Virus record (IMG/VR): IMGVR_UViG_2541047433_000025
Length of the DNA stretch: 13,457 nt
Strand: one strand, 5' to 3'
Origin: a virus
Lineage: Duplodnaviria > Heunggongvirae > Uroviricota > Caudoviricetes
Program-made: the position numbers and the translations under genes
Notes under the pieces: generated by a model
The model's database searches: none
The model's input: the letters and a program-made list of their open reading frames with translations, nothing else
Told to the model about the DNA's origin: nothing
Shown here: positions 1 through 13,457 of the stretch, piece by piece
How positions within the stretch are numbered: position 1 is the first letter of the stretch
Layout: each line of letters begins with the position of its first letter

Positions 1-1236
1 CTATGATAACCGCGCATTCAACATGGCTACCTGTTCGTCGTTCATGTCATCAATCCACATACCGTAAATTTCATACACCATCTGCGCAGTTTCATGCCCC
101 ATTTGGCTGGCTATAAATGCCGGGTTCGCTCCTGCCGTCAACAGCCAGCAGGCAAAAGTATGCCGCGTATGGTACGGATTACGGCGGCGAATACCAGCAC
201 GTTTTACTGCTGCATTCCACCTTGCCCCCAAACTGCTTACCGAGTAATAAGGTTTTTGTTTTCCGTTACACACCCTGGGCATGAAAACAAAATGCAGTTT
301 TTGCTTTTCGGTTCTGCCGTACTCCCGATGATAAAAGGTGATTTCGCTTTTGCGATGATGCCCGGTCAGTTTGTATTGCTCCTTCAGTGCTTCAAGAGCA
401 GGCTGCAGTAGTGTTACCGTCCGGATCCCCGCATTTGTTTTTGGGGGACCGAACATATCCAGTATCGTCAGGTTTCTTCTGACATTCACAACTCCCTTCT
501 CGAAATCCACATCCTCCCACGCCAGAGCAGCCAGTTCCCCGTGACGAAGCCCGGAGTATACGGCAAATTTCCACAAGTTCTGGCTCTGTCCTTTTTCACT
601 TTCCATTAATGCATTGAATTCTGTTTTAGATAACGGGTCAGGCTTTATTCTGTTTCTCTGTAATTTCTTTACTCCTTCAAATGGTTTGGTTGATATAAAT
701 CCCGACTGATACGCAAAACGTAACAACGAACAGAGCAGGGCGATATAGTTATCAACTGTGCGCACGGTTCTTCCTTTTTTGTTGGATCTTGGATTATCCA
801 GGTAAAGCGTTTCTCCATGCAGCAGTTCATTCCGGTAGTTTAAGATATCGCTATAACGAATATGCGATATCGGAGTACTCTCACAAATTATTATCCTGAG
901 TGTTTTTAATTGTGATTTCGTTTTCTTCATTGTGTTTGTTGTTAACTCTGTTTCTTTAATTTTTGTCCAGATATCACAAAGCTCCCCGAACGTTTTTATG
1001 ACCCTCGTTGTCACCATTTTTGCCCCAGTGCTGGACTGGGGAAAACGTCTTAAATACTCAAACTCACCGGAATTGATTTCATGAACTATCAACGCTCTTA
1101 AATTCCCGGCTTTTTTAATGTTACTGTTAGTAACCTCCCAGCCTTTCAATGTTTCCCGACATCGTTTTCCTCGAAACATGAACCAGATGCGAATGTATTT
1201 ACCTCGAATCTCGACACCTGTTGGTAATTTAGACAT
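1..1236 (-). CDS. intR: Tyrosine-type phage integrase, 411 aa, complete (stop at 1-3)
   Basis: Full-length minus-strand ORF from the track. C-terminal region ...YHTRHTFACWLL...GH...YEIYGMW has the R/H/Y arrangement typical of tyrosine recombinases. Sits at the prophage end next to an excisionase-like gene. Symbol from recalled K-12 Rac synteny and length. Confidence 0.9.
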   Translation of the reverse strand: MSKLPTGVEIRGKYIRIWFMFRGKRCRETLKGWEVTNSNIKKAGNLRALIVHEINSGEFEYLRRFPQSSTGAKMVTTRVIKTFGELCDIWTKIKETELTTNTMKKTKSQLKTLRIIICESTPISHIRYSDILNYRNELLHGETLYLDNPRSNKKGRTVRTVDNYIALLCSLLRFAYQSGFISTKPFEGVKKLQRNRIKPDPLSKTEFNALMESEKGQSQNLWKFAVYSGLRHGELAALAWEDVDFEKGVVNVRRNLTILDMFGPPKTNAGIRTVTLLQPALEALKEQYKLTGHHRKSEITFYHREYGRTEKQKLHFVFMPRVCNGKQKPYYSVSSLGARWNAAVKRAGIRRRNPYHTRHTFACWLLTAGANPAFIASQMGHETAQMVYEIYGMWIDDMNDEQVAMLNARLS

Positions 1237-1237
1237 A

Positions 1238-1453
1238 TCATGAGTCTTTGATAAACTGATTTATCTTTGGATAGTTATACCAGATAATCCCTCGCTTACT
1301 GTCTGGCTTCCCTAAAGGAGATACTCGTTTGAAGTGGAAGCCTTCCACCCAACAGTTCTGGCGGTATGCTTCAATTTGTCTGGCCCCCAGACCAGTGCGA
1401 AGCATCAGGCCGTATTCAACCATCCACTCTTCATTAAAGATTACTTGTGCCAT
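1238..1453 (-). CDS. ydaQ: Excisionase-like small protein (Rac ydaQ-like), 71 aa from ATG at 1453; track ORF extends to 1477
   Basis: Small ORF directly upstream of int; its stop (1238-1240) is 1 nt from the int start (xis-int arrangement). ATG at 1453 is preceded by GAGGTG. Function inferred from position and size, not from a recognised motif. Confidence 0.7.
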
Positions 1454-1552
1454 CGCATCACCTCTGGCAGGCGCCAATGTTAGACTTAAATTGACGCCCG
1501 ATGTTGATTATTAATAATCAGCTATGAAGTTTTAATTTGAATACAATGCAAT

Positions 1553-1741
1553 TCACGAGGACTGAAGTTTCTCGCAATTAAAATTTATCAGTTTTACTTT
1601 CTGCTCTCTGGAAACGCCTGCTTCTTTTTTACCTGAGAGCATTTTTTCGCATTCTGATTTCGTTAGTTTAGATTTTGAATATCTTGTCCAGTTAGTAGGA
1701 GTGCCACCTTCCTTTTCAATAGTGGCGGTAATTTTATACAT
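1553..1741 (-). CDS. ydaC: Small phage protein of unknown function, 62 aa from ATG at 1741 (alternative starts 1753 or 1813)
   Basis: Minus-strand ORF in the track (86 aa to the farthest start). The ATG at 1741 is preceded by GGAGGTG with about 5 nt spacing. Symbol assigned only by recalled Rac gene order between ydaQ and ralR. Confidence 0.5.
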   Translation of the reverse strand: MYKITATIEKEGGTPTNWTRYSKSKLTKSECEKMLSGKKEAGVSREQKVKLINFNCEKLQSS

Positions 1742-1778
1742 GAACACCTCCATTATTATTTCCAGTGGTTCGTTTATT

Positions 1779-1940
1779 TCATCGTTCGAGTGCTTCTTTT
1801 TCACTTCCACCATAACCGGTTCGGGATTCGCATCCGTTACACTTCGCTCGGTAATATCCTGAAATGGCTTTCACCGTTACTGATGGACAACCACAAAATG
1901 GACATGGTTTAACATTGTCATATCTCATAATTTTTCTCAT
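1779..1940 (-). CDS. ralR: Lar-type restriction-alleviation zinc-ribbon protein, 53 aa (not in the ORF track, below its length cutoff)
   Basis: Manual translation: MRKIMRYDNVKPCPFCGCPSVTVKAISGYYRAKCNGCESRTGYGGSEKEALER. Two Cys pairs (CPFCGC ... CNGC) form a zinc-ribbon pattern; an in-frame stop lies 4 codons upstream of the ATG. Directly downstream of recT as in the recE-recT-lar arrangement. No clear SD seen. Its 3' end overlaps the longest alternative start of the neighbouring ydaC-like ORF. Confidence 0.55.
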   Translation of the reverse strand: MRKIMRYDNVKPCPFCGCPSVTVKAISGYYRAKCNGCESRTGYGGSEKEALER

Positions 1941-1983
1941 AAAAATATTTCAAGTTGGCGGTGCATTACACCGCCAGGCTGAA

Positions 1984-2793
1984 TTATTCCTCTGAATTAT
2001 CGATTACACTGTATTCCCCGGTTAATACAGAGGAATCTGCAGGATCGATTGTCAGTGGTTCCTTTTCATCCATTGATACTGCACGCTGGATCTCAATTGA
2101 TACGGGCAGATATTTGAACAGGCGACGAATAGCCGTTTTCTTTGCCATTTCTTCCCAGTGAGTTACCCACGGCCCGTTATTACCAGCTTTACTCTGGCTG
2201 CGCACCAGCTCAATCTGTTTGCGCGTCATAACTTCAAACTGAGTACCTCCGTCTTTCAGTCTTGCGACAGCATAGACGTGGGTAACAGGGGCATCTTCGT
2301 TTTCTCCTGGGCGGTGTATTAACTTTTCATCAAGGCCAAATTCGAAATTAAACTCGTCACCTTCACGGACAACACGGGCTGACAAGCTGGCGATTTGACC
2401 TGAACGGCGAGCCAGATCAATCATGCCTCGATAGCCAATGATTAGCTGAACGTTTTTTTTACCGCTCTTTTCGTTTTTATTACCAAAAGGCAGTAAATAT
2501 GCATGACCGAGGGCGCTACCGGGCTCAAGTCCGAGCTGTGAACACTGTACGATTGCACTGACAAAACTCATAGTGTCACAGTTTCCTAACGCCGGAACTT
2601 TACGAATTTCTGTGGTGGCGATACGGATCATACGTTCAGCCGTCATATGGCGTGGAAGAGCTGCTGCCAGTTGCTCTTTCATTGATGGCTGGTTAATAAA
2701 ACTAATCACGTCGTTATTTTTAATTGCTGCTGGTGCACGGTTTCCCTGAGTTTTTTGCAGATCGGCTTTTGCGATTGGTGGTTGCTTAGTCAT
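1984..2793 (-). CDS. recT: RecT single-strand annealing protein, 269 aa
   Basis: Track ORF is 288 aa; the internal start [14 protein letters not shown]... matches the RecT N-terminus as I recall it and is preceded by AAGGAA. Start overlaps the recE stop by 8 nt. Confidence 0.93.
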
Positions 2794-5386
2794 TTGCATA
2801 TTCCTTAGCCCAGCGGGGCAGTGATAACGTCTTAATAGCTGGCCATTCATCGGTATTGAGGCAGTCAGCCAGGGTTCGCAGATTGCGGTGATATTCCAGC
2901 TGACCTGCCAGTTTTGCTTCTTCGCCCATCATGAAAATTTCAACCGGATAACGTCCGCATTCAATAGTTGTGCTGGCAACCAGAAAAACGAAAGTTGGCT
3001 GCACTCCAAACTGTGCTTCATAACCGTCACTGTAGAATGCATCCTGAACGTGATAGCGGTAGTCGTAATAAGCGGTTTTGAATCGTTGAATATCCGCCGT
3101 AGTTTTCACGTCCATGATCCAGTGAAATTCAGGGATAATTTTGTCCGGACGGCACCGACACAAAATTGCTGTTTCAGGATCTTCCCAGTAAATTGATGAT
3201 TCAGCGTGTCCGGCGCTTTCAACAAGCCATTGCCCCAGCGGCAAAGCCATAACGCTCTGATACATGAGTTCAATTTTCCGGCCTTCTTCGGCAGTGATAA
3301 CCGTTTTTCCTGTGCTTGCGCATTCCCTCAGAAACGCTTTCTCTTCTTCTTTTCCGGAGTTTGTCCGGCGGTTAAATTCAGGTGCTACGATAAAGCGGTT
3401 ACTGAATTCTTCCGGCTCAAGTACCCGGCAGTGGAAAGCGGTTCCTAAATCGAGCGTTTTTGTCTTTGTGGTGTCCACGGGGGCATTTTTACGCCACAAA
3501 TACAGTGCCGGAGTATCAGCAATGTCATCGAGCTGAGACTTACTGACACCGGGACCCGCGTGGTAATTCTCATTCGAAATTCCGTAATAAATACCTGGCT
3601 CTATGTCTTCTACGATTACGGGATCTGCGACTTCGCCAGTTTCATCACTGCAATCGCGATGCGGATCGCTGCCAGCATTCTCATTGTGCGGATGTTCAGC
3701 GCCTTCCATTTCCTCCGGATCATTTTCCTTAGCTTCAACCTGACTCTCTTCATCGAATGTTTCCTGGTATGTTGCGTCGCCCATCACCGCACCACAGTCA
3801 GGGCAGTTATCCCCGCCAGTCTGGCCGCAGGCATTGCAGGCTATTTCCGGTTCCTGTTGCACTACTGGCTCAGGTTGATTCATATCCGGGCTGGTTTTTT
3901 CCGTTTCTGGCTGGTTCTGGTACACACAATCGCGAGTCTGGATCCCCTTTACCCATTTCGGATCGTTCGGGTCGCTAATTCCGTCAACAAATTCACCACG
4001 TGATGCAGCAAGCAATTTATCGGCATCGACAGGATTTTTTGATGGAATGTTTTTCCGGGCTTCATGGAGTTCTGCCCGCAGTTCCTGATATTTCGCATCA
4101 ACAGAATTTACCTGTGACTGAGCATCCAGCGGCTGCGTGTCCTGATGATGTTCAGTTGCGTCCGGTTCCATTGTTTCAGCCTCTCCCTGTTCAACTGCCG
4201 TTGTTCCAGATGGTTGCGGTTTTTCTTCATCATCCTGTTTTCCTTCTTCTGTTACTCGCTGCGGCATCGGGGCAGAGGAGCGACCGCAGGCAATATCCAC
4301 GATTTCCGGATCAGGGTTGGCATGATCGGTTTCAGTCAGTACTTTGTTCAGATATTCAGTGACGTGCGCGGGGATGACCTCGATCCCAATTGGTGCTTCT
4401 TTTACGGACGCAACCACGATGGCGCGGGAATAATCCAGCCCGCCAGGCATGGTGATGAATTTGTCGCGGAAAACAGAAAAGGGCGGTTTATTTTCAGCGA
4501 TAATTTCCTCAATGCGTTTAGCGTGTGCCGGATGAAGGTTATAGATGTCCAGATCCATTGAACGGGCCAGTACGCCAGTGGCTACGTCGCGCGCCAGTGA
4601 CGTCAGATCGTGTACGAAACCTTCGCCGCGATCGGTGAGGTTTCCGCCGCCAGCATTAGCACCGGAAGCCGTGCGAGTGATGTGTGAAACACGATTACCC
4701 TTCATCCACTCTTTTGTCAGCAGTCCTCGATCGGTGTAGTCAGCGTTCAGGTATGCTTCGAAAAAAGCAGTTATCAGTCCCAGGTTTGAATTACCAGGAT
4801 TAGGGAAAACTTTGTCAGTGTCACGAACCAGTTTGTGGAGTTCGCGAATTTCCAGCGGGTCGAGCAGGCTGGTTTTGTGGGAAACAGCCAGGGCAGTAAC
4901 AGCCGGTAGTTCTTCAGCCCGAGCAATGTGTAATGCCTGGAGTCCGTCGCGTGAAACGTGCGTTACCGGTTTTTCGCTGCCGTGTTGAGCAAGCCAACGA
5001 ATGGGCAGTTCCTGGCCAGAAATTGGGAGTAGCATATTCTCCTCAATCTCAGTCATGTCTTCGCCGTTGACGTTGGTATTGCCTTGATAGTGAGCGTTGT
5101 CTGGTGCTGCTCCCGGTTTTAGTTCCCATGTCATGGAGTCTTTGCTGAGTTGATAGCGTTCACTCCAGGTAAAATCGATCTCACCTTCAGCGGGCAGGTC
5201 ATTAACGACAGGAAAATTCGTGGCAACAGCTTTAAAATAGCTGCTCAGTTTTTTACCTGACTTAACGATCAGGTAGTCCAGAGTGGCACAGGTCGATTCA
5301 AAATCGTTGCTTGCCCACAGGACGACGTCAGGTTCACCGGATGATTTTTTCGCTTTCCGTAACAGGAAGAGTGGTTTTGTGCTCAT
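2786..5386 (-). CDS. recE: RecE exonuclease VIII, 866 aa, full length
   Basis: 866-aa minus-strand ORF, the length of full-length RecE. Long acidic low-complexity N-terminal and middle region followed by a C-terminal nuclease region. Position upstream of recT. Confidence 0.93.
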
Positions 5387-5457
5387 TGTTTTTTAACCTC
5401 AACTCAGATTAAAATTCGTTTTGTTCAGTGAATGATCTTGCCGGATACACACTGTTC

Positions 5458-5482
5458 ATAGCCTGCGCCATACGCAGGCTAT
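5458..5482. terminator. Perfect 10-bp stem hairpin ATAGCCTGCG-CCATA-CGCAGGCTAT between racC and recE
   Basis: Stem read directly from the sequence. On the plus strand it is followed by the T-rich TTCTTTCAGATTT; on the minus strand (the coding direction) no U-run follows. Function uncertain. Confidence 0.3.
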
Positions 5483-5487
5483 TTCTT

Positions 5488-5763
5488 TCAGATTTCACCT
5501 TTTAATTTCATTGCAATTAGAGTTGCCAGAAATTCGGCTTTTTTTTCTGTGGGCAGATTCTTTCCGATATGCACCAGGCACATTTTTTTGACACCTTCAT
5601 CAAGTGTTTTTACGTTGCCTGATGGACCATCGATATCAACCACAGTGAATGGGGTTTCTTTATTTTCTGTTTTAATTACGTAGCCAATGCGCTTTCCTTC
5701 CAGATTCACCTCGTGAACAATGTCATCGGTAGTTACAACAGTGGCTTCATAATTGGTAATCAT
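5488..5763 (-). CDS. racC: RacC-like small protein, 91 aa from ATG at 5763 (track ORF extends to 5811)
   Basis: ATG at 5763 is preceded by AAGGAG. Position between recE and ydaE matches Rac synteny. Function unknown. Confidence 0.8.
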   Translation of the reverse strand: MITNYEATVVTTDDIVHEVNLEGKRIGYVIKTENKETPFTVVDIDGPSGNVKTLDEGVKKMCLVHIGKNLPTEKKAEFLATLIAMKLKGEI

Positions 5764-5837
5764 GTTTTTCTCCTTAATTAAGGTTGAGCGAATACCTGCC
5801 ATTTCTGGCATAAATTCAGTTTCGAATAGTCAATTAA

Positions 5838-6008
5838 TTAAAGTTCATGTGCCATCTGGTCTTTTTCGGCACAAGCTTCACTGCAATATTTTCTCGGTTC
5901 GTCTTTTGATAAAATCCCGTGCATGAAGTGAAGCATTCTTTCAATAGCTTTGCTTTCTTCAACGTCTTTTTTGCAAAGGTGGTAAGCACATTTTATTTTC
6001 TTAGTCAT
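5838..6008 (-). CDS. ydaE: YdaE-like small cysteine/histidine-rich protein, 56 aa (not in track)
   Basis: Manual translation: [56 protein letters not shown]. Start ATG overlaps the kilR stop by 1 nt (ATGA). An alternative start 2 codons upstream (MVM...) is possible. Confidence 0.7.
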   Translation of the reverse strand: MTKKIKCAYHLCKKDVEESKAIERMLHFMHGILSKDEPRKYCSEACAEKDQMAHEL

Positions 6009-6229
6009 CACCATGACTCCGCCTTTACAGGTAAACCATCACGACCGAGGAAGACTTTAATCATGCGGTCAGTAATGCATGTTTTTGTGGTCAGGTTACG
6101 AATATATAGTTTTCGCTTTTTAATATTGTTTGCCGAGGCAATATATGTCCGGCCTTCATGAAGAACATAATCGCCAGGAGTCACACACTGACGTGGTATT
6201 TCATCAGTTCCGAAGTGATGTGCAATCAT
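6008..6229 (-). CDS. kilR: KilR-like cell-division inhibitor, 73 aa from ATG at 6229
   Basis: Track ORF is 77 aa; the internal start [14 protein letters not shown]... gives 73 aa. Position in the leftward operon between ydaE and the immunity region matches Rac. Confidence 0.8.
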
Positions 6230-6670
6230 AATTATCTCCATTTTTACAAATGAACTTTGTTGATGCGGTGCCTGGTGCCTCCAGGTGACTGCAACCAGTT
6301 AACAATTACAGTCGGCTTTCCCACCCAAACCAATAAGGACTAACATGACTTTTAACTGTGCCACGTGCGCTTAGCCGCATTCACCGCATCACAAAATTCA
6401 CTTTAAAAAGGGCGGACATCAGCCGAACTTCAAGAAAAAAACTGATGCCGCCAGGACTACACACAGCAATGTCGTTATTTACAACCGGAGGCGCACTCCC
6501 ACCATTTAAATTTAACAGACAAGACCGACTCTTTATGGATATCGGAAATGCGCCTTCGTGTTGTGCCCGGTTTTATTTCACCACCTCCGGGCTTCGGTGG
6601 TCTCGGCTATACCCCTACAGCGAGAGCTTGTGTTAACATTTCAATACCCTTACAGTTGAGAGTTATTGAT

Positions 6671-7159
6671 ATGTTGGATGTATTTACTCCATTGTTGAAA
6701 CTTTTTGCTAACGAGCCACTCGAAAGACTTATGTATACGATTATCATTTTTGGTCTCACTCTCTGGCTGATACCGAAAGAGTTTACTGTCGCATTCAATG
6801 CTTATACTGAAATACCTTGGCTCTTTCAGATTATCGTTTTTGCCTTTTCTTTCGTGGTCGCCATTTCCTTCTCAAGATTGCGAGCACATATTCAAAAGCA
6901 TTATTCATTACTACCAGAGCAACGAGTATTGCTTCGTTTATCTGAGAAAGAAATCGCTGTATTTAAAGATTTCCTTAAAACAGGAAATCTTATTATCACT
7001 TCTCCTTGCCGTAACCCGGTTATGAAAAAATTAGAACGGAAGGGCATCATTCAACATCAGAGTGATAGCGCAAACTGTTCTTATTATCTCGTCACCGAAA
7101 AATACTCCCATTTTATGAAGTTATTCTGGAACAGCAGGAGTAGACGTTTTAATCGTTAG
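6671..7159 (+). CDS. sieB: SieB-like superinfection exclusion protein, 162 aa from ATG at 6671
   Basis: Track ORF is 203 aa from an upstream start; the internal start MLDVFTPLLKLF... gives 162 aa with hydrophobic segments (IIIFGLTLWLIP, LFQIIVFAFSFVVAISF) consistent with a membrane protein. Only plus-strand gene in a leftward block, as in Rac. Confidence 0.8.
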   Translation: MLDVFTPLLKLFANEPLERLMYTIIIFGLTLWLIPKEFTVAFNAYTEIPWLFQIIVFAFSFVVAISFSRLRAHIQKHYSLLPEQRVLLRLSEKEIAVFKDFLKTGNLIITSPCRNPVMKKLERKGIIQHQSDSANCSYYLVTEKYSHFMKLFWNSRSRRFNR

Positions 7160-7311
7160 CTTACTGTGTGCTTCTCCAACCATCGGCGCGCACCAGTTTC
7201 GGTTTTAAATGTTTTGCTTTTGGTATACGTCATGGCAGTGAACGTTCCATCCTGGTTGGGGAACACGCCGCACACCAGGGATTCGTTGTTGCCGAGGTCG
7301 ATTTTTTGCAT
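7156..7311 (-). CDS. ydaF: YdaF-like small protein, 51 aa (not in track)
   Basis: Manual translation: MQKIDLGNNESLVCGVFPNQDGTFTAMTYTKSKTFKTETGARRWLEKHTVS. Its 3' end overlaps the sieB 3' end by 4 nt (convergent). Symbol by synteny and length. Confidence 0.55.
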   Translation of the reverse strand: MQKIDLGNNESLVCGVFPNQDGTFTAMTYTKSKTFKTETGARRWLEKHTVS

Positions 7312-7321
7312 TTTGCGAATC

Positions 7322-7456
7322 TCACATCTTGTTGCTACGTATAGCGACTTCTGCCTGCCAGAGATCCCAGTCGTTGCTGCGTAAAGCCTGCACAGCCTGG
7401 TTGTAAGTGATACCGCAACAATCCATCAAATACTGAACTACTTCGTAATGCACCAT
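7322..7456 (-). CDS. ydaG: YdaG-like small protein, 44 aa (not in track)
   Basis: Manual translation: MVHYEVVQYLMDCCGITYNQAVQALRSNDWDLWQAEVAIRSNKM. Lies between racR and ydaF on the minus strand. Symbol by synteny and length. Confidence 0.55.
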   Translation of the reverse strand: MVHYEVVQYLMDCCGITYNQAVQALRSNDWDLWQAEVAIRSNKM

Positions 7457-7620
7457 CTTATCTATCCCCTTAACGCCGGGTGGCGGAACTAACTGCTGCA
7501 CTGCAAAATTTGAATCCCGCCGTCATGTTCATACGCCTCGGGCTGGCTACTTAACCCCTGACCACTGCCTGGTAACTCGAAGTATTGCCCGGCGTTCTGT
7601 GGGGCGGGGTGGGTTGGTAG

Positions 7621-7680
7621 GTATATAATGTACTTTGTGTTCATCATTGTAAAGTACTTTAAGTACATTTTATGTATAAA
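7621..7680. promoter_or_regulatory. Second operator-like cluster between racR and ydaG
   Basis: AATGTACTTT (7627-7636), perfect palindrome AAAGTACTTT (7651-7660) and AAGTACATTT (7661-7670), the same GTAC-core motif as in the racR-ydaS operator. TATATAAT at 7623-7630 (plus) and TTTACA-N17-CATTAT on the minus strand. Confidence 0.4.
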
Positions 7681-7743
7681 AAAATGAGACGGGATAAAGT
7701 GAAGCACAAACCCGGAGGGGGACGCTACCGGATTTATGCTGGT

Positions 7744-8163
7744 TTAAGAGGCTTTTTGTTTTTTCTTTCGTGCTAACTCTTCGTAAATTGCATTGTACTT
7801 CTGTTTTTTCTCCTCAAGAGTTTTTAAAAGTTCATCTGTCTCACTGTCAGGGAGCTCGTCCAGAAGGTCAATGATGATTTTTTGTCTTGGATTTAACTCC
7901 TGATAGAAACGTATCTGTCCACTTTCTTCTGTATCCTCTCCCAAAAGATAGGTTGGTGTTGTTCCAATGAGTGTTGCTAATTCCCTTAATTTCTCTCGGC
8001 GAGGAATTGTTTCACCATTAAACCATTTGCTAACCGCTTTTGGTGTTAATTTCATTCGACGGGCAATTTCTGCCTGCCTTCCATGTTGTTCATAACCAGC
8101 GTTTTCACAGGCTAGCGCAAGCCTACTGGCGAACTCTTTACGCGCTTTATCTTCATGAACCAT
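7744..8163 (-). CDS. racR: Prophage repressor, XRE-family HTH (RacR-like), 139 aa
   Basis: Helix-turn-helix segment QAEIARRMKLTPKAVSKWFNGETIP. Transcribed divergently from ydaS across a short operator region. An in-frame stop 19 codons upstream prevents any N-terminal extension in this sequence. No SD upstream of the ATG. Confidence 0.85.
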   Translation of the reverse strand: MVHEDKARKEFASRLALACENAGYEQHGRQAEIARRMKLTPKAVSKWFNGETIPRREKLRELATLIGTTPTYLLGEDTEESGQIRFYQELNPRQKIIIDLLDELPDSETDELLKTLEEKKQKYNAIYEELARKKKQKAS

Positions 8164-8242
8164 AAGTTCAATGATATTCGCTCTTGAATGTACTGTCAGT
8201 TCTGTTATAGCATGTACTCAAAGTTCACATTGTGAGGGTGAT
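8164..8242. promoter_or_regulatory. Divergent promoter/operator region between racR and ydaS
   Basis: 79-bp intergenic region with two copies of ATGTACT (8188-8194, 8212-8218) and two of AAGTTCA (8164-8170, 8219-8225). Candidate rightward promoter TTGAAT (8184-8189) / TATAGC (8206-8211). Candidate leftward promoter CTGACA (rc of 8194-8199) / TATCAT (rc of 8171-8176), which would start transcription at or next to the racR ATG. Confidence 0.55.
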
Positions 8243-8497
8243 ATGAACCAGAAAACACTTGAAGATGTAATCAAAACTGTTCGCGTTTCTGTTGTGGCCG
8301 ACGTTTGTGGTGTCAGCCAAAGAGCAATCTACAAATGGATGGATAACGGTAAATTGCCTCGCACAGAATATACCGGCGAAACAAATTACGCTGAAAAAAT
8401 CGCTCATGCATCAAACGGATTATTTTCTGCCGATGCAATTTTAACTATTGGCAGAAATAAAACTACTACGAAAAAGCTGATGGGAGTTGATTCATGA
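8243..8497 (+). CDS. ydaS: YdaS-like small protein, 84 aa from ATG at 8243 (track ORF starts at 8171)
   Basis: ATG at 8243 is preceded by GAGGGTG. The 8171 start would leave no room for a promoter after the racR start. Stop overlaps the ydaT start (ATGA). Confidence 0.7.
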   Translation: MNQKTLEDVIKTVRVSVVADVCGVSQRAIYKWMDNGKLPRTEYTGETNYAEKIAHASNGLFSADAILTIGRNKTTTKKLMGVDS

Positions 8498-8916
8498 AAA
8501 TCAAGCATGAGCACATCGAATCAGTGTTGTTAGCCCTGGCAGCCGAAAAAGGGCAGGCGTGGGTCGCTAACGCAATTACTGAAGAATATCTGCGCCAGGG
8601 GGGCGGCGAATTGCCCCTGGTACCAGGCAAGGACTGGAACAATCAGCAGAATATCTATCATCGTTGGTTGAAAGGTGAAACGAATGCGCAAAGGGAAAAA
8701 ATTCAGAAACTGATCCCTGCGGTTCTGGCAATTCTTCCTCGCGAGCTGCGTCACCGACTCTGCATCTTCGATACCCTGGAACGCCGTGCATTACTGGCGG
8801 CACAGGATGCACTGAGTACGGCAATTGATGCGCATGATGATGCAGTCCAGGCCGTTTACCGTAAAGCACATTTCAGCGGCGGCGGTTCTCCTAGCGATTC
8901 TGTCGTAGTGCATTGA
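8494..8916 (+). CDS. ydaT: YdaT-like protein, 140 aa
   Basis: Track ORF, GGGAG SD, translationally coupled to ydaS. Length and position match Rac ydaT. Confidence 0.8.
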   Translation: MKIKHEHIESVLLALAAEKGQAWVANAITEEYLRQGGGELPLVPGKDWNNQQNIYHRWLKGETNAQREKIQKLIPAVLAILPRELRHRLCIFDTLERRALLAAQDALSTAIDAHDDAVQAVYRKAHFSGGGSPSDSVVVH

Positions 8917-8929
8917 TTGAAATTAATCG

Positions 8930-8951
8930 TACCGAACTGTTTTGTTCGGTA
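8930..8951. repeat. Inverted repeat TACCGAAC-N6-GTTCGGTA between ydaT and ydaU
   Basis: Perfect 8-bp arms with a 6-nt loop. No T-run follows, so it is not a convincing intrinsic terminator; may be a protein-binding site or RNA stem. Confidence 0.4.
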
Positions 8952-8961
8952 TCAGTTAAAT

Positions 8962-8980
8962 GTAACGCTGCGAGCGTTAC
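8962..8980. repeat. 19-bp palindrome GTAACGCTGCGAGCGTTAC, copy 1 of 3, just upstream of the ydaU start
   Basis: Perfect 8-bp inverted arms around 3 nt, read directly from the sequence. Confidence 0.7.
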
Positions 8981-8993
8981 AAGGTGAAAACAA

Positions 8994-9782
8994 ATGGCTT
9001 CAAACTGGATAAAGCTCGAAGTTATTACGCCGGATAAGCCGGAAATATTCAGGCTTGCTGAGATTCTGAATATTGATCCAGATGCCGCATTAGGGAAAGT
9101 CATTCGCTTCTGGGCATGGGCGGATCAACAAATGATAGACGGTAACGCAGAGTGTAACGCTCGCGGCGTTACAAAAAGTGCAATAGATCGCATCACTTTT
9201 ATGGCTGGTTTTGCTGATGCGTTAATTCAGGTTGGATGGCTGGTCGAAACTAATGGTGTGTTGTCGCTTCCTAACTTTGAGCGCCATAACGGGAAAAGCT
9301 CTAAAAAACGGGCGGTTACAAACGAGAGAGTAACAAAAATACGAGAACTGAAACGAAAAGGTAACGCTGCCAGCGTTACAAAAACGGATCAAAAAGCGTT
9401 ACCAGAGGAAGAGAAAGAGGAAGATATAAATACTTATCTCCCCCTAAATCCCCCTCGCCAAAAACGAGCGTCTAAAAAATTCGAACCGGAGGCTATCGAG
9501 CTGCCTGACTGGTTGCCGGAAACACTCTGGCATGAGTGGGTTCAGTTCAGGCAGGCATTGCGAAAACCGATTCGAACGGAGCAGGGCGCTAACGGGGCGA
9601 TACGGGAGCTGGAAAAATTCCGCCAGCAGGGTTTTTCACCTGAGCAGGTGATTCGACACAGCATCGCCAATGAATACCAGGGCTTGTTCGCGCCGAAAGG
9701 TGTTCGGCCAGAGACGTTGCTCCGACAGATTAACACCGTCTCGTTTCCGGACAGTGCGATCCCGCCAGGCTTCAGGGGGTAA
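8994..9782 (+). CDS. ydaU: Phage replication initiation protein, lambda O-like role (YdaU-like), 262 aa
   Basis: Track ORF directly upstream of the DnaC-like gene. Contains internal palindromic repeats (see repeat features). An in-frame stop 3 codons upstream fixes the start at 8994. Confidence 0.75.
   Translation: MASNWIKLEVITPDKPEIFRLAEILNIDPDAALGKVIRFWAWADQQMIDGNAECNARGVTKSAIDRITFMAGFADALIQVGWLVETNGVLSLPNFERHNGKSSKKRAVTNERVTKIRELKRKGNAASVTKTDQKALPEEEKEEDINTYLPLNPPRQKRASKKFEPEAIELPDWLPETLWHEWVQFRQALRKPIRTEQGANGAIRELEKFRQQGFSPEQVIRHSIANEYQGLFAPKGVRPETLLRQINTVSFPDSAIPPGFRG
9154..9172. repeat. 19-bp palindrome GTAACGCTCGCGGCGTTAC, copy 2 of 3, inside ydaU
   Basis: 7-bp inverted arms GTAACGC/GCGTTAC around 5 nt; an extra half-site GTAACGC at 9142-9148. 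Confidence 0.7.
9361..9379. repeat. 19-bp palindrome GTAACGCTGCCAGCGTTAC, copy 3 of 3, inside ydaU
   Basis: 9-bp inverted arms around 1 nt; GTTAC half-sites also at 9315-9319 and 9330-9334. Confidence 0.7.
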
Positions 9783-9788
9783 CAGACC

Positions 9789-10535
9789 ATGAAAAATATT
9801 GCGACAGGCGGCGTTCTGGAACGTATCCGCAGACTGGCCCCGCCACATGTAACCGCGCCATTCAGGACGGTGGCGGAGTGGCGCGAGTGGCAACTTGCAG
9901 AAGGCCAGAAACGTTGTGAGGAGATCAACCGTCAGAATCGTCAGTTGCGGGTGGAAAAAATCCTGAATCGCTCCGGCATACAGCCGTTGCACCGCAAATG
10001 CTCGTTTGCGAATTACCAGGTGCAGAACGACGGCCAGCGATACGCGTTGAGTCAGGCGAAATCTATCGCTGACGAACTGGTTACCGGATGCACAAATTTC
10101 GCGTTCAGCGGAAAACCTGGTACCGGAAAAAACCATCTGGCGGCGGCTATCGGGAATCGCCTGCTGAAAGATGGCCAGACAGTGATTGTGGTTACCGTGG
10201 CTGATGTTATGAGCGCCCTGCACGCCAGCTATGACGACGGGCAGTCAGGCGAAAAATTTTTGCGGGAACTGTGCGAAGTTGATCTGCTGGTTCTTGATGA
10301 AATTGGTATTCAGCGCGAGACGAAAAACGAGCAGGTGGTACTGCACCAGATTGTTGATCGCCGGACAGCGTCAATGCGCAGCGTGGGGATGCTGACAAAC
10401 CTGAACTATGAGGCCATGAAAACATTGCTCGGCGAGCGGATTATGGATCGCATGACCATGAACGGCGGGCGCTGGGTGAATTTTAACTGGGAGAGCTGGC
10501 GCCCGAATGTTGGTCAGCCAGGTATTGAGAAGTAA
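9789..10535 (+). CDS. ydaV: DnaC-like AAA+ helicase loader (lambda P-like role), 248 aa
   Basis: Walker A motif [15 protein letters not shown] and Walker B-like [16 protein letters not shown]. Follows the initiator gene. Confidence 0.88.
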
Positions 10536-10557
10536 TTTTTACCGGGAGGAAATTTTA

Positions 10558-11316
10558 ATGGAGACCGTTTTTGACGCACTGAAAGCGATGGGAAAAGCCA
10601 CGTCGGTAGAACTGGCTACGCGACTTGATATCAGTCGAGAAGAAGTGCTGAACGAGCTGTGGGAACTGAAAAAGGCTGGCTTCGTTGATAAAAGCGTATA
10701 CACCTGGCGCGTGGCTGATAACAACGTTCAGCAGGAACAGCCAGCGCCAGAGCTGCCGGAAGAAACCACCATGGCAACAGTAGCGAAAATCTCAGAGTGC
10801 GATTTAACCGCGACGATTGAACAACGTGGCCCACAAACGGCGGATGAGTTGGCTACATTGTTCGGTACCACATCACGCAAAGTAGCTTCAACGCTGGCAA
10901 TGGCTATCAGCAAAGGACGCCTGATTCGCGTAAACCAGAACGGTAAATTTCGTTACTGCATACCGGGCGATAATTTACCAGCAGAGCCGAAAGCAGCATC
11001 GGTAGCGGAAACTGATGGTAAGGCCTTTCCTCAGCCCACAGGTGTTGCGTTACCAGTACAGGAGGCTGCAACACAGGAAGATATTAAAACAGAAACGGTG
11101 GCGGACATTGTGCAGTCGCTGCCATCGTTTACTGAAACGCGAGCGGATGACCTGGTTTTACCATCGCTGCATATGGCAAACCGCGAACTGCGTCGGGCGA
11201 AAAATCATGTCCAGAAGTGGGAGCGAGTCTGCGCCGCGCTGCGGGAGCTGAACAAGCACCGGGATATTGTTCGACAGATTTTCGATTCCTCCAGTCGTAT
11301 TGTGTCGGAAAAGTGA
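10558..11316 (+). CDS. ydaW: YdaW-like phage protein of unknown function, 252 aa from ATG at 10558
   Basis: Track ORF (269 aa from an upstream start); ATG at 10558 is preceded by GGGAGG. Lies immediately after ydaV as in Rac. Appears full length here. Confidence 0.6.
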
Positions 11317-11331
11317 TTGCCGGAGGCACCT

Positions 11332-11754
11332 ATGGCAAAAGTATTTACACCAGAAGAGCGGGAAAAAATTAAAGGGCAGGTTGTTGAACTTGTACGTCTG
11401 AGCGGTCGCGAGACGTTACGGGCTCTGGAGGCTAAAACCGGTGCATCAAGGTATTACATAAGCACTCTCGCCAGAGAACTGGTCGCCAGTGGTGATGTTT
11501 ACAATTCAGGCTACGGATTATTCCCGTCTGAGCAGGCGCGTAAAGACTGGCAAAACGCCCGCAAAAAACTATCAAGGGCAAAGGTGAAGAAACCGGTTGT
11601 GGTTGATCCGGATCTTATCTGGTCATTACCAGACGGAGAAATACGCCGCTACGACAGGCGTCTGAACATAATCTGTAGCGAGTGCCGGAAGAGCGAAGCT
11701 ATGCAGCGTGTACTGGCTTTCTATCAGGGTAATTTTCAGAAGGTGCTGTTGTGA
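11332..11754 (+). CDS. Hypothetical phage protein, 141 aa, possible HTH-like segment
   Basis: ATG at 11332 preceded by GGAGG at 5 nt spacing (track ORF starts at an upstream TTG, 11317). Segment GRETLRALEAKTGASRYYISTLARELV resembles a DNA-binding helix pair; C-terminal CSEC pair. No family recognised. Confidence 0.6.
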   Translation: MAKVFTPEEREKIKGQVVELVRLSGRETLRALEAKTGASRYYISTLARELVASGDVYNSGYGLFPSEQARKDWQNARKKLSRAKVKKPVVVDPDLIWSLPDGEIRRYDRRLNIICSECRKSEAMQRVLAFYQGNFQKVLL

Positions 11755-11859
11755 GCCAAATTAACAATCGGAACTTCGTGAAGAGAAAGCATAATCCAAA
11801 TCTGAATAATTAAGTTCAGCACTGTAAATAAAATTTAATCCTTAACTGGAGGTATATTT

Positions 11860-12072
11860 ATGTTAAATACACAGAAAGCCATTAATGCGGAAAAATATAA
11901 CGAGTGGGCAAGAAAATTCTCTGAGCAGATTTTTAAAATTACTGGCGATGAGAATGCGGCAAAAAATGAATTAGAACCGTGGACGCCTGAAGGAGCCGAC
12001 CCAAATTATTGCTGGAGGGAGGTTGATCCAGTTGATGCTGCAAATGAAGCTATGAGTTATCACAACGATTAA
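11860..12072 (+). CDS. Hypothetical small protein, 70 aa, in an AT-rich island
   Basis: Track ORF with SD TGGAGGT about 8 nt upstream, own AT-rich upstream region, and a GC-rich GAAA-loop hairpin 10 nt after the stop. Family unknown. Confidence 0.6.
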   Translation: MLNTQKAINAEKYNEWARKFSEQIFKITGDENAAKNELEPWTPEGADPNYCWREVDPVDAANEAMSYHND

Positions 12073-12081
12073 TGTCAGGAG

Positions 12082-12099
12082 GCCGCCCGAAAGGGCGGT
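12082..12099 (+). terminator. GC-rich hairpin GCCGCCC-GAAA-GGGCGGT 10 nt after the stop of the 70-aa gene
   Basis: 6-7 bp GC stem with a GAAA tetraloop. The downstream sequence is AT-rich but has no clean T-run, so this is a possible terminator or mRNA-stabilising stem. Confidence 0.35.
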
Positions 12100-12323
12100 A
12101 ATGAATGGTCACATTATTTAGAAAAAATATCCGCGAAAGAGTAGAACAACAGAATTTCTGTTTCTCATTCTGTTTATCGTGTTGATGATACCGATATCCC
12201 CGTTAATCCTAGTCTGGATAATCGGAAAAATAATTGAGCCAGTTATTGAATTGTATAACGACGTGGTATGGGCGTCATTCAACACACTGCACAATAAAAT
12301 TAATCCGTATAAGGAAAACTGAT

Positions 12324-12587
12324 ATGGCAACTTTGACAAAAAAAGAACGGGCATGGTTGAACGAATTACAGGAAGTTCTTGATCGCTGTCCATCACCGAA
12401 AAAAATTGGCTTTTACACCATTGGCGATAAAAGCATTTACCTGTATGACCTACGCCGCATGGATGAAATCATGGAGGCTCTTGATAATCGTTCGTCGATG
12501 GATTGGTGTGTTGCTGTTCATGATATGAATGCAGGGTTTGATGAAAAGATTTTGTTCCCCTCATCAGTTGAAAGCACTGCGGGTTAA
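12324..12587 (+). CDS. Hypothetical small protein, 87 aa
   Basis: ATG at 12324 preceded by AAGGAAA (track ORF starts upstream at 12234). Stop is 10 nt before the next gene start. Family unknown. Confidence 0.55.
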   Translation: MATLTKKERAWLNELQEVLDRCPSPKKIGFYTIGDKSIYLYDLRRMDEIMEALDNRSSMDWCVAVHDMNAGFDEKILFPSSVESTAG

Positions 12588-12597
12588 GGAGTAACAC

Positions 12598-12759
12598 ATG
12601 ACCACTATTACCAAAGAACGTATTGAATTGTTCATTAAAAATCCGGTTGAAAACGGGCTTACCCGTGGTGAACAAATGGAACTGGCACGGATTGCGCTGG
12701 CATCGCTGGAAGCAGAGCCAGTTGGTGATTTTTATGAATACAAACCGGATGACTGGTAG
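12598..12759 (+). CDS. Hypothetical small protein, 53 aa (not in track)
   Basis: Manual translation: MTTITKERIELFIKNPVENGLTRGEQMELARIALASLEAEPVGDFYEYKPDDW. AAGGAG SD 7 nt upstream of the ATG. Family unknown. Confidence 0.55.
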   Translation: MTTITKERIELFIKNPVENGLTRGEQMELARIALASLEAEPVGDFYEYKPDDW

Positions 12760-12837
12760 CAGCGTTCGGCTGGAGATAAAGCGCCAAAATGGACGCCACC
12801 CTATGCCGTTTTTCCAGCGCCCGTAGTGCCGGAAGAA

Positions 12838-13083
12838 ATGGATTTGCTTACATGCCATCTCGATGGTGTAACTGAAACATATGCTGAGGGATGGAACGCT
12901 TGCCGCGCTGCCCTGCTTCAGGGCAAAGGGGAGCCCGGGAAACAAGTTCGCGAATTGACAATGCTGGTTAAACAATTGGTTAGTCAACTGAAGAAAGCGA
13001 AACCGGGCTGCAAATTGCCGGATAAAGTGATGGACTACCTGGAGCGAAGCGGACTTATAAGCGTGGAGGATGTTTCACGATGA
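12838..13083 (+). CDS. Hypothetical small protein, 81 aa from ATG at 12838 (85 aa if the GTG at 12826 is used)
   Basis: Track ORF 12826-13083. Start is ambiguous and the SD is weak (GGAAG). Stop overlaps the start of a downstream 27-codon ORF (ATGA). Confidence 0.5.
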   Translation: MDLLTCHLDGVTETYAEGWNACRAALLQGKGEPGKQVRELTMLVKQLVSQLKKAKPGCKLPDKVMDYLERSGLISVEDVSR

Positions 13084-13163
13084 CCTGGCCTGAAGCATTC
13101 ACAACGGTAGGAATTGCGATGGCGGTGGCGCTGGTTGTGTATTCGATTTGCCGCTGGGGATAA
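13080..13163 (+). CDS. Candidate 27-aa hydrophobic micro-protein (MTWPEAFTTVGIAMAVALVVYSICRWG)
   Basis: Manual translation. ATG overlaps the upstream stop (ATGA); GGAGGA lies about 10 nt upstream. Central stretch GIAMAVALVVYSI could form one transmembrane helix. Short ORFs can arise by chance, so confidence is low. Confidence 0.3.
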   Translation: MTWPEAFTTVGIAMAVALVVYSICRWG

Positions 13164-13316
13164 AAACGGTTTGCGGGAAAAGGATAGTTAAGTAGAATTG
13201 CTGCGGGTGCTTGAGGCTATCTGCCTCGGGCATGAACACCAACGGCAGATAGAGAAAAGCCCCAGTTAACATTACGCGTCCTGCAAGACGCTTAACATTA
13301 ATCTGAGGCTCAATCC

Positions 13317-13373
13317 ATGCTGAACACATGTAGGTTAGCCTCTTACGTGCCGAAAGGCAAGGAGAAGCAGGCT
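13317..13373 (+). other. Mok-like in-frame upstream start and leader of the hok gene (19-codon N-terminal extension MLNTCRLASYVPKGKEKQA)
   Basis: ATG at 13317 is in frame with the hok ATG at 13374. The MLNTCR... extension resembles the Mok reading frames of chromosomal hok loci as I recall them. Confidence 0.5.
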
Positions 13374-13457
13374 ATGAAGCAGCAAAAGGCGATGTTAATC
13401 GCCCTGATCGTCATCTGTTTAACCGTCATAGTGACGGCACTGGTAACGAGGAAAGAC
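13374..13457 (+). CDS. hok: Hok/Gef-family type I toxin, 5' part only (first 28 codons; truncated by the window end)
   Basis: Manual translation MKQQKAMLIALIVICLTVIVTALVTRKD matches the conserved Hok/Gef N-terminal transmembrane region (closest to HokD/RelF as recalled). AAGGAG SD upstream. Confidence 0.8.
   Translation, partial: MKQQKAMLIALIVICLTVIVTALVTRKD

What the first reader, a model, noticed from the sequence alone, without database searches (positions are those of the whole stretch)
13164..13457. hok/mok type I toxin locus in the nin-like region of a Rac-type prophage
The last 84 nt encode MKQQKAMLIALIVICLTVIVTALVTRKD, the conserved N-terminal transmembrane part of Hok/Gef toxins. 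An in-frame ATG 19 codons upstream (13317) gives a Mok-like extension, MLNTCRLASYVPKGKEKQA. About 200 nt of untranslated leader precede it, where a fold-back structure and an antisense Sok RNA would be expected. As I recall, K-12 Rac has no hok here and K-12 hokD sits in the Qin prophage behind relBE, so a stand-alone hok in this position would be a different cargo arrangement.
Basis: partly seen in the sequence, partly recalled or inferred. Interest (0 to 1): 0.6.

Follow-up and report, generated by a model that had tools for sequence, protein, structure and literature searches.

The report
Known hok/sok toxin-antitoxin locus, truncated

Summary
Window 13374-13457 encodes MKQQKAMLIALIVICLTVIVTALVTRKD, and an in-frame ATG at 13317 adds 19 codons. 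Pfam HOK_GEF and Rfam RF01794 both pass their curated cut-offs.

From 13186 to 13457 the window differs at one base (13282) from hokW-sokW of Sakai prophage Sp5. Takada et al. 2021 showed that locus to be a working type I toxin-antitoxin pair. Their sokW and hokW probes and their sokW -10 mutagenesis site all map exactly onto the window.

By homology I place these elements:
- hok -10 box at 13193-13198
- hok mRNA 5' end near 13205
- Sok antisense RNA at 13325 to about 13249, minus strand
- Sok promoter at 13332-13360, minus strand

The Hok C-terminus and the 3' fold-back element lie beyond the window. Identical copies elsewhere carry both.

The backbone is the Rac-type prophage Sp10, identical to Sakai over 1-13168 apart from a 3-nt gap. 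hok-like DNA occurs in 4,715 of 5,426 complete E. coli genomes, often at this nin-like position, so the arrangement is not new.

One oddity remains. In sequenced O157 Sp10 prophages the hok core is replaced by a methylase island. The window's exact junction was found nowhere else, so it may be a rare recombinant or an assembly join at a repeat.

The parts
13080..13163 (+). 27-codon hydrophobic mini-ORF (MTWPEAFTTVGIAMAVALVVYSICRWG). Its ATG overlaps the stop of the upstream 81-aa ORF (ATGA). It marks the left edge of the module shared with other hok copies. Function unknown.
   Evidence: Homology with the hok copies of FORC_044 and Sakai Sp5 begins exactly at this ATG (alignment A1). No Pfam or NCBIfam match. 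The Takada et al. hokW-sokW clone starts here: the 3' part of primer YO-432 matches 13080-13096.
13171..13198 (+). Putative hok promoter, inferred: weak -35 TTGCGG (13171-13176), 16-nt spacer, -10 TAGAAT (13193-13198).
   Evidence: The position of TAGAAT was checked. It aligns with the TATAAT upstream of K-12 hokC. It is below the threshold of the consensus scan. Placed by position and homology, not shown to be active.
13205..13457 (+). First 253 nt of the hok mRNA: the 5' element that pairs with the 3' end (13205-13218), the Sok target region, and the mok and hok translation starts.
   Evidence: Rfam RF01794 matches 13205-13379 at 113.5 bits, with model positions 1-157 all matched. The region aligns collinearly with K-12 hokC and hokB and with an R1-type hok. 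It is identical to L002 and one base from Sp5 hokW.
13249..13325 (-). Predicted Sok antisense RNA, about 77 nt: 5' single-stranded tail, long hairpin, U-rich 3' tail. It is complementary to the mok Shine-Dalgarno (13306-13309) and the mok AUG (13317-13319).
   Evidence: The ends were placed by alignment to the sokC annotation of K-12. The sokW northern probe YO-592 of Takada et al. equals 13296-13325 and ends at the predicted 5' end. The fold is -32.7 kcal/mol, z = -6.0.
13332..13360 (-). Sok promoter: -35 TTGCCT (13360 to 13355), 17-nt spacer, -10 TAACCT (13337 to 13332), start near 13325.
   Evidence: Primer YO-421, used by Takada et al. to make the promoter-less sokW mutant, changes bases 13331, 13332, 13335 and 13337, so TAACCT becomes GAGCCG. 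It is homologous to TTGCGC-17-TATCCT in the R1-type locus. It is below the threshold of the consensus scan.
13317..13457 (+). mok reading frame: ATG at 13317, Shine-Dalgarno GAGG at 13306-13309, in frame with hok as in K-12 mokC. It runs on past the window end.
   Evidence: Translation. K-12 mokC and hokC share a stop codon. Sakai annotates the Sp5 copy (ECs_1245, 213 nt, 70 codons) as 'regulatory protein MokC for HokC'.
13374..13457 (+). First 28 codons of hok (transmembrane half of the toxin), with Shine-Dalgarno AGGAG at 13360-13364. Cut by the window end.
   Evidence: Window 13360-13457 is 100% identical over 98 nt to K-12 hokD. Identical copies continue to a 51-aa Hok ending LCEVRIRTGQTEVAVFVDYESEK, which scores 81.1 bits on Pfam.

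Best explanation
This is the 5' two thirds of a hok/mok/sok type I toxin-antitoxin locus of the hokD/hokW type.

How it works, shown for hokW-sokW and the R1 paradigm and inferred here from sequence identity:
- A weak promoter, with its -10 at 13193-13198, makes a roughly 400-nt hok mRNA starting near 13205.
- The 5' end of that mRNA pairs with its 3' end, which keeps it closed to ribosomes and to Sok.
- Slow 3' trimming lets the 5' end refold and opens the mok start.
- hok translation is coupled to mok translation.
- A promoter on the opposite strand inside mok (13332-13360) makes a short, unstable Sok RNA (13325 to about 13249). Sok pairs with the mok ribosome-binding site and start codon, which blocks translation and marks the duplex for RNase III.
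- When Sok supply stops, the stable mRNA is translated and the 51-aa Hok peptide damages the inner membrane.

In a prophage the most likely trigger is induction. For hokW, mitomycin C removes sokW RNA and HokW appears in a RecA-dependent way, which roughly doubles phage release.

In this window hok lies on the same strand as the early rightward operon and downstream of it. Read-through at induction could therefore add to hok mRNA. That is my inference and is untested.

Several near-identical copies sit in one O157 genome, so their Sok RNAs should cross-protect. That makes classic post-segregational killing by this one copy unlikely. This is also inference.
For: - ORF and mok extension.
- Pfam HOK_GEF scores 32.3 bits for the fragment and 81.1 bits for the full protein of an identical copy.
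- Rfam RF01794 scores 113.5 bits at 13205-13379. The same model hits K-12 hokC, K-12 hokB and an R1-type hok on the hok strand.
- Alignment A1 shows 1 mismatch (13282) in 272 nt (13186-13457) against Sakai Sp5 hokW-sokW, and none against L002 over 13138-13457.
- The primers and probes of Takada et al. 2021 map exactly: YO-592 to 13296-13325, YO-597 to 13333-13362, YO-349 to 13210-13234, YO-422 to 13305-13330, and the YO-421 mutation site to 13331-13337.
- That paper shows HokW toxicity, neutralisation by sokW from its own promoter, loss of protection in the -10 mutant, and mitomycin/RecA-dependent HokW production.
- The full-length mRNA of the identical copy folds with nt 1-14 paired to nt 377-391, z = -7.1. 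Trimming 30-40 nt from the 3' end refolds the 5' end into a local hairpin.
- The predicted Sok RNA folds as a tail plus hairpin, z = -6.0.
- There are 6-8 hok-like places per O157 genome in the rows listed.
Against: - The window stops at hok codon 28. The C-terminal half of the toxin, the stop codon and the 3' fold-back element are not seen for this copy.
- No expression data exist for this copy.
- Both promoters fall below the threshold of the consensus scan.
- Chromosomal hok loci hokA, hokB and hokC were reported not to mediate post-segregational killing (bioRxiv 10.1101/2025.08.07.668861).
- The physiological role shown for hokW is a modest two-fold effect in a different prophage and at a different position (the right end of Sp5).
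Confidence: 0.93

Rival explanations
1. The hok sequence is real, but its link to this prophage is not. The window would be a draft-assembly contig that ran from the unique Sp10 DNA into a multi-copy repeat, followed another hok copy, and ended there. In the real genome this position would then hold the Sp10 hok remnant and the methylase island.
For: - The window is 100% identical to Sakai Sp10 over 1-13168 apart from a 3-nt gap. All four mismatches (13169, 13227, 13243, 13259) lie in the hok leader, and Sp10 diverges completely from 13263.
- From 13138 onward the window is identical to another hok copy found in the same O157 genomes.
- The junction was not found in 5,426 complete E. coli genomes, the GTDB representatives, IMG/VR, JGI metagenomes, or the four representative places checked among 34 contigs carrying the upstream 81-aa ORF.
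- The window ends 195 nt after the divergence point, inside the repeat.
Against: - The exact-match switch interval is only 31 nt (13138-13168), shorter than the k-mers most assemblers use.
- The homologous arrangement (81-aa ORF, mini-ORF, hok) is common in other E. coli at 92-96% identity.
- Sp10 keeps both a 5' and a 3' hok remnant, so an intact-hok form of this prophage must have existed.
- The 3-nt difference at 10747 shows that the source is not one of the sequenced O157 genomes.
Confidence: 0.3
2. An inactive relic: the locus is disrupted downstream of the window, or is silent, as are the K-12 hok loci with IS elements nearby and the Sp10 remnant.
For: - In the O157 Sp10 prophages examined, hok is destroyed from 13263 onward at exactly this site.
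- K-12 hokC has IS186 next to it, and K-12 hokD has lost its leader.
- The C-terminal half is unseen.
Against: - Every regulatory element within the window is intact and identical to the functional hokW-sokW.
- All 25 listed copies that are 100% identical over 13164-13457 are annotated as intact Hok/Gef proteins.
Confidence: 0.08
3. The signal comes from a different gene: the 76-codon minus-strand ORF at 13099-13329.
For: The ORF appears in the mechanical ORF list.
Against: - It lies antisense to the mini-ORF, the hok promoter and the Sok region.
- No annotation of the homologous loci calls it.
- The region is fully explained by the hok leader model.
Confidence: 0.01

Closest known systems
hokW-sokW of Sakai prophage Sp5 (Takada et al. 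2021, Toxins 13:796, PMC8621323)
   Same: 271 of 272 bases are identical over 13186-13457. This covers the hok mRNA 5' end, the whole Sok gene and its promoter, the mok start, both Shine-Dalgarno sites and Hok residues 1-28. All published probes and the -10 mutagenesis site map exactly.
   Different: - One base differs in the apical loop of the Sok hairpin (13282, T versus G), and one in the hok promoter spacer (13185).
- The upstream mini-ORF differs at about 10 bases.
- hokW lies at the far right end of Sp5, after the tail genes and next to a ygiW-like gene. This copy lies in the nin-like region of a Rac/Sp10-type prophage.
hokD (relF) of the K-12 Qin prophage
   Same: The window is 100% identical over the 98 nt from the hok Shine-Dalgarno to the window end. 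Both occupy an equivalent prophage position, upstream of a DUF968 gene and a Q-like antiterminator. PGAP names many copies of this type hokD.
   Different: K-12 hokD has lost the leader, mok and sok, and relBE abuts the Shine-Dalgarno. The window keeps them. The last residues of HokD (TAYEPEE) differ from those of the copies identical to the window (VDYESEK).
hokC/mokC/sokC (gef) of K-12
   Same: The leader is collinear at about 75% identity. mok is in frame with hok, and the Sok position and promoter layout are the same. Rfam RF01794 scores 118 bits there.
   Different: The window's Sok hairpin carries an 18-nt insert, giving about 77 nt against 59 nt for sokC. hokC is chromosomal, not in a prophage, and lies next to IS186.
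hok/mok/sok (parB) of plasmid R1
   Same: The architecture is the same: 5'-3' long-range pairing, a mok-coupled hok, a cis-antisense Sok with a promoter inside mok, and the same conserved boxes. Rfam scores 87 bits on an R1-type locus.
   Different: The paper reports about 44% protein identity between HokW and R1 Hok. R1 hok/sok is plasmid-borne and acts in post-segregational killing. From my own knowledge of the R1 sequence, mok is out of frame with hok in R1 itself.

Membership tests
Hok/Gef toxin family (Pfam PF01848) | Roughly 50-aa peptide with an N-terminal transmembrane helix that matches the family profile | tested here: met
   The 28-aa fragment scores 32.3 bits (cut-off 22) on profile positions 1-23 of 42.
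Hok/Gef toxin family (Pfam PF01848) | Conserved C-terminal periplasmic half (LCE...TEVA region) | tested here: inconclusive
   This half lies outside the window. Copies identical over 13164-13457 encode it (51 aa, 81.1 bits over profile positions 1-42).
hok/mok/sok type I toxin-antitoxin locus | Structured hok mRNA leader matching the family covariance model | tested here: met
   RF01794 scores 113.5 bits against a gathering score of 59, with full model coverage. Although the model is named 'sok', it describes the hok-sense leader.
hok/mok/sok type I toxin-antitoxin locus | An upstream overlapping mok frame with its own ribosome-binding site | tested here: met
   ATG at 13317, GAGG at 13306-13309, in frame as in mokC. 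Translational coupling itself was not tested.
hok/mok/sok type I toxin-antitoxin locus | A cis-encoded antisense Sok RNA with its own promoter, complementary to the mok translation start | tested here: met
   -35 TTGCCT, 17-nt spacer and -10 TAACCT are on the minus strand at 13332-13360. These bases are identical to the sokW promoter that was inactivated by mutation, and the sokW probe matches 13296-13325. The predicted RNA has a tail plus hairpin fold. Expression of this particular copy was not tested.
hok/mok/sok type I toxin-antitoxin locus | Pairing of the mRNA 5' end with a fold-back element at the 3' end | tested here: inconclusive
   The 5' partner (13205-13218) is present. The 3' partner is outside the window. 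In the identical copy L002, nt 1-14 pair with nt 377-391, z = -7.1.
hok/mok/sok type I toxin-antitoxin locus | The toxin kills or arrests cells, and Sok neutralises it | not testable with these tools
   Shown experimentally for hokW-sokW, which differs by one base within the window's span.
Rac-type lambdoid prophage (Sakai Sp10) | Gene order intR-xisR-ralR/RalA-recT-recE-racC-kilR-sieB-repressor-ydaT-ydaV, next to ttcA | tested here: met
   Window 1-13262 is 99.9% identical to Sp10, which sits next to ttcA. The order matches K-12 Rac. The ttcA junction itself is outside the window.

The most novel reading that the evidence does not exclude
The window may record a real Sp10/Rac-type prophage variant in which the hok locus is intact. 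In the sequenced O157 Sp10 prophages the core of this locus has been replaced by a three-gene island (DNA methylase, second methyltransferase, ATPase). The variant would have arisen either as the pre-replacement state or by gene conversion from another prophage's hok copy. That would make the hok locus a swap site for prophage cargo. It would also place a working toxin gene directly downstream of the early rightward operon, where induction read-through could drive it.
Probability: 0.45. Interest if true: 0.2.

Novelty: already known. Interest (0 to 1): 0.1.

Why it matters
It matters little beyond correct annotation. The locus should be labelled as a hokW/hokD-type hok-mok-sok type I toxin-antitoxin module that is partial at the window end.

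Three practical points follow.

First, RefSeq annotation of this module is uneven. It appears as 'MokC', 'hokD' or 'Hok/Gef family protein', and Sok is not annotated in any of the prophage copies examined.

Second, the Rfam family named 'sok' actually reports the hok-sense leader. The strand of an Rfam hit must therefore not be read as the strand of the antitoxin.

Third, comparison with Sp10 shows a hok locus whose core was swapped for a methylase island. This is a small example of cargo turnover at toxin-antitoxin loci in O157 prophages.

Tried and rejected
- **Extending the window.** I searched for the exact junction in the GTDB genome representatives, IMG/VR and JGI metagenomes, and found nothing. 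I also looked up contigs encoding the upstream 81-aa ORF. All four places shown carry the Sp10 methylase arrangement. The full ORF of this particular copy was therefore not recovered.
- **Consensus promoter and terminator scans**. Neither the hok nor the Sok promoter reaches the scan threshold, and the counts are at chance level. The promoters were placed instead by homology and by the published mutagenesis.
- **Looking for hokW in the Sp5 nin region**. It is not there. It lies at the right end of Sp5.
- **NCBIfam.** Only sub-threshold Hok and HokA hits, so it was not used for naming.
- **The minus-strand 76-codon ORF at 13099-13329.** Considered and rejected.
- **The Fozo et al. 2008 review (PMC2593563).** Not held in the library, so the statements about the R1 5'-3' pairing and 3' trimming rest on established knowledge of the R1 system and on the two papers I could read.

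Full report
**1. The observation**

Window 13374-13457 translates to MKQQKAMLIALIVICLTVIVTALVTRKD. The ATG at 13317 is in frame and adds MLNTCRLASYVPKGKEKQA. Neither is a chance ORF.
- The 28-residue fragment passes the curated Pfam cut-off for HOK_GEF (32.3 bits against 22, profile positions 1-23 of 42).
- Rfam RF01794 matches 13205-13379 over its whole length at 113.5 bits (gathering score 59, E = 1e-25).
- Window 13164-13457 is 100% identical to loci annotated 'Hok/Gef family protein' in many O157:H7, O121 and O103 genomes. hok-like DNA of this kind matches 4,715 of 5,426 complete E. coli genomes, with a median of two places per genome and 6-8 in the O157:H7 genomes listed.

**2. What it is**

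A copy identical over the window's last 320 bases (FORC_044, locus L002) continues to a 51-aa Hok, MKQQKAMLIALIVICLTVIVTALVTRKDLCEVRIRTGQTEVAVFVDYESEK. That protein scores 81.1 bits on Pfam.

A literature search found that this is the hokW-sokW locus of Sakai prophage Sp5 (Takada et al. 2021, PMC8621323). I located the Sp5 copy in the Sakai genome, where it is annotated as ECs_1245, 'regulatory protein MokC for HokC', and aligned it to the window. Between 13186 and 13457 the window differs at a single base, 13282 (T here, G in Sp5). One more difference lies at 13185 (alignment A1).

The paper's oligonucleotides map exactly onto the window:
- the sokW northern probe YO-592 equals 13296-13325;
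- the hokW probe YO-597 is the reverse complement of 13333-13362;
- YO-349 equals 13210-13234;
- YO-422 is the reverse complement of 13305-13330;
- YO-421, which made the 'promoter-less' sokW mutant, changes 13331, 13332, 13335 and 13337.

**3. Anatomy**

I aligned the window to K-12 hokC/mokC/sokC and hokB/sokB, whose Sok RNAs are annotated, and to an R1-type hok/sok. This gives the following map.

| Element | Coordinates | Strand |
|---|---|---|
| hok -10 box TAGAAT, with a weak -35 | 13193-13198 | + |
| hok mRNA 5' end | near 13205 | + |
| 5' element GGGUGCUUGAGG | 13205-13216 | + |
| mok Shine-Dalgarno GAGG | 13306-13309 | + |
| mok ATG | 13317 | + |
| hok Shine-Dalgarno AGGAG | 13360-13364 | + |
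| hok ATG | 13374 | + |
| Sok promoter -35 TTGCCT | 13360 to 13355 | - |
| Sok promoter -10 TAACCT, after a 17-nt spacer | 13337 to 13332 | - |
| Sok RNA, about 77 nt | 13325 to about 13249 | - |

- The Sok -10 box is precisely the hexamer mutated in the published promoter-less construct.
- Sok folds as a single-stranded 5' tail plus a long hairpin with a U-rich tail (-32.7 kcal/mol, z = -6.0).
- It is longer than the 59-nt sokC because of an 18-nt insert at the tip of the hairpin. The one base that differs from sokW sits in that apical loop.
- mok is in frame with hok, as in K-12 mokC. Mok is therefore a 70-aa extended Hok, which matches the 213-nt ECs_1245 annotation.

The Rfam family named 'sok' models the hok-sense leader. 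At K-12 hokC and hokB it hits the hok strand, while sokC and sokB are annotated on the other strand. The plus-strand hit in the window is therefore evidence for the leader, not for the strand of the antitoxin.

**4. The parts outside the window**

The fold-back partner and the toxin C-terminus cannot be checked for this copy. In the identical copy, a 397-nt mRNA folds with nt 1-14 paired to nt 377-391 (CCUCAACGCACCCGC), at -168.4 kcal/mol and z = -7.1. When 30-40 nt are removed from the 3' end in silico, the 5' end refolds into a local hairpin. This is the kind of rearrangement known for R1 hok mRNA, as I recall it from the Gerdes laboratory's work. These are predictions on a sister copy, not measurements.

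**5. How it most likely works**

Shown for hokW-sokW:
- HokW is toxic and localises to the inner membrane.
- sokW expressed from its own promoter neutralises it, and the -10 mutant does not.
- RNase III and Hfq contribute partly to neutralisation.
- Mitomycin C removes sokW RNA, and HokW is then made in a RecA-dependent manner.
- Deleting the locus halves the release of Sp5 phage.

Inferred for this copy from near-identity: the same circuit operates.

Two further inferences are mine and untested:
- All genes from the cro-like gene to hok are on the plus strand. Early rightward read-through at induction could therefore raise hok mRNA over Sok.
- O157 genomes hold several near-identical copies. 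Their Sok RNAs should cross-protect, which argues against classic post-segregational killing by this one copy.

Chromosomal hokA, hokB and hokC were reported not to mediate such killing (bioRxiv 10.1101/2025.08.07.668861).

**6. Context and the novelty claim**

Window 1-13262 is 99.9% identical to prophage Sp10 of O157:H7 Sakai, which sits next to ttcA like K-12 Rac. It has the Rac gene order intR, xisR, ralR/RalA, recT, recE, racC, kilR, sieB, repressor, ydaT, ydaV.

- K-12 Rac lacks hok because everything between ydaW and the lysis remnants is deleted.
- K-12 hokD sits behind relBE at the equivalent place in Qin, upstream of ydfU (DUF968) and the Q-like ydfT. It is 100% identical to the window from the Shine-Dalgarno onward, but its leader has been replaced.
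- Intact stand-alone hok genes between the replication module and DUF968-RusA-Q occur in RecE/YdaT-type prophages of O55:H7, strain C5 and many others. A total of 1,067 genomes cover at least 80% of 13000-13457.
- Enrichment of hok in prophages has been documented.

**7. One thing that does not fit**

The window is 100% identical to Sakai Sp10 over 1-13168 except for a 3-nt gap at 10747. The only four mismatches (13169, 13227, 13243, 13259) lie in the hok leader. From 13263 Sp10 diverges completely into AT-rich DNA followed by a DNA methylase gene.

Sp10 retains a 3' hok remnant after a three-gene island (ECs_1953-1955). The island therefore replaced the hok core.

From 13138 onward the window is identical to a different O157 hok copy, and no complete genome matches 13080-13457 perfectly.

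The window's junction was not found in:
- 5,426 complete E. coli genomes;
- the GTDB representatives;
- IMG/VR;
- JGI metagenomes;
- the four representative places shown (30 similar places collapsed) among 34 contigs carrying the upstream ORF.

It is therefore either a rare real recombinant or an assembly join at a repeat close to a contig end. I put the artefact at about 0.3. This affects where the locus sits, not what it is.

**8. Verdict**

The finding is correct and well read, but it describes a known and experimentally characterised system in a common position. Novelty: already known. Interest: 0.1.

Noticed in passing
window 1557-1735 (+) and 1782-1928 (-): A second type I toxin-antitoxin pair lies in the same window. 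RalA sRNA scores 225 bits on Rfam RF02694. The ralR toxin gene carries a TGG-to-TGA change that shortens RalR to 49 aa, against 64 aa in K-12, while RalA is conserved. PGAP still names the short form ralR in O157.
   Followed up: partly
L001 16265-16520 and L017 1127-5100 (Sakai Sp10, downstream of the window's equivalent of 13262): In O157 Sp10 the core of the hok locus (Sok target, mok, hok ORF) is replaced by a roughly 4-kb island: a DNA cytosine methyltransferase, a Methyltransf_35 protein and an HATPase_c_3 protein. A 5' hok remnant and a hokD-like 3' remnant flank the island.
   Followed up: partly
window 13138-13168 (switch interval) and 13263: The window is exactly Sp10 on the left and exactly another hok copy on the right. 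This junction was absent from every collection searched. It could be gene conversion or an assembly join at a repeat.
   Followed up: yes
window 13080-13163 (+): A 27-codon hydrophobic mini-ORF overlaps the stop of the 81-aa ORF (ATGA) and marks the left edge of the module that travels with hok in different prophages. It has no family match. The Sp5 version keeps the frame but has about six amino-acid changes.
   Followed up: partly
window 13205-13379; L004 602-754; L005 667-818: Rfam RF01794, named 'sok antitoxin', is built on the hok-sense leader. It hits the hok strand at K-12 hokC and hokB, where sokC and sokB are annotated on the opposite strand.
   Followed up: yes
window 10747: A 3-nt (CGG) deletion in the DUF1627 gene relative to Sakai Sp10, where it was mapped; the other top-listed O157 Sp10 matches also span 13,265 nt against the window's 13,262. 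It is the only difference in the first 13,168 bases.
   Followed up: no
L002 4346-4352 (outside the window): In full-length copies identical to the window, Hok codon 47 is UAC followed by G. TadA-mediated Tyr-to-Cys editing has been reported for hokB and at a C-terminal position for hokC, hokD and hokE. Whether this copy is edited was not examined.
   Followed up: no
L008 36420-36632 (Sakai Sp5): hokW lies at the far right end of Sp5 on the strand that, after excision and circularisation, would be read by leftward early transcripts passing through the attachment site. This could explain why HokW production depends on induction. This is speculation from the gene map.
   Followed up: no
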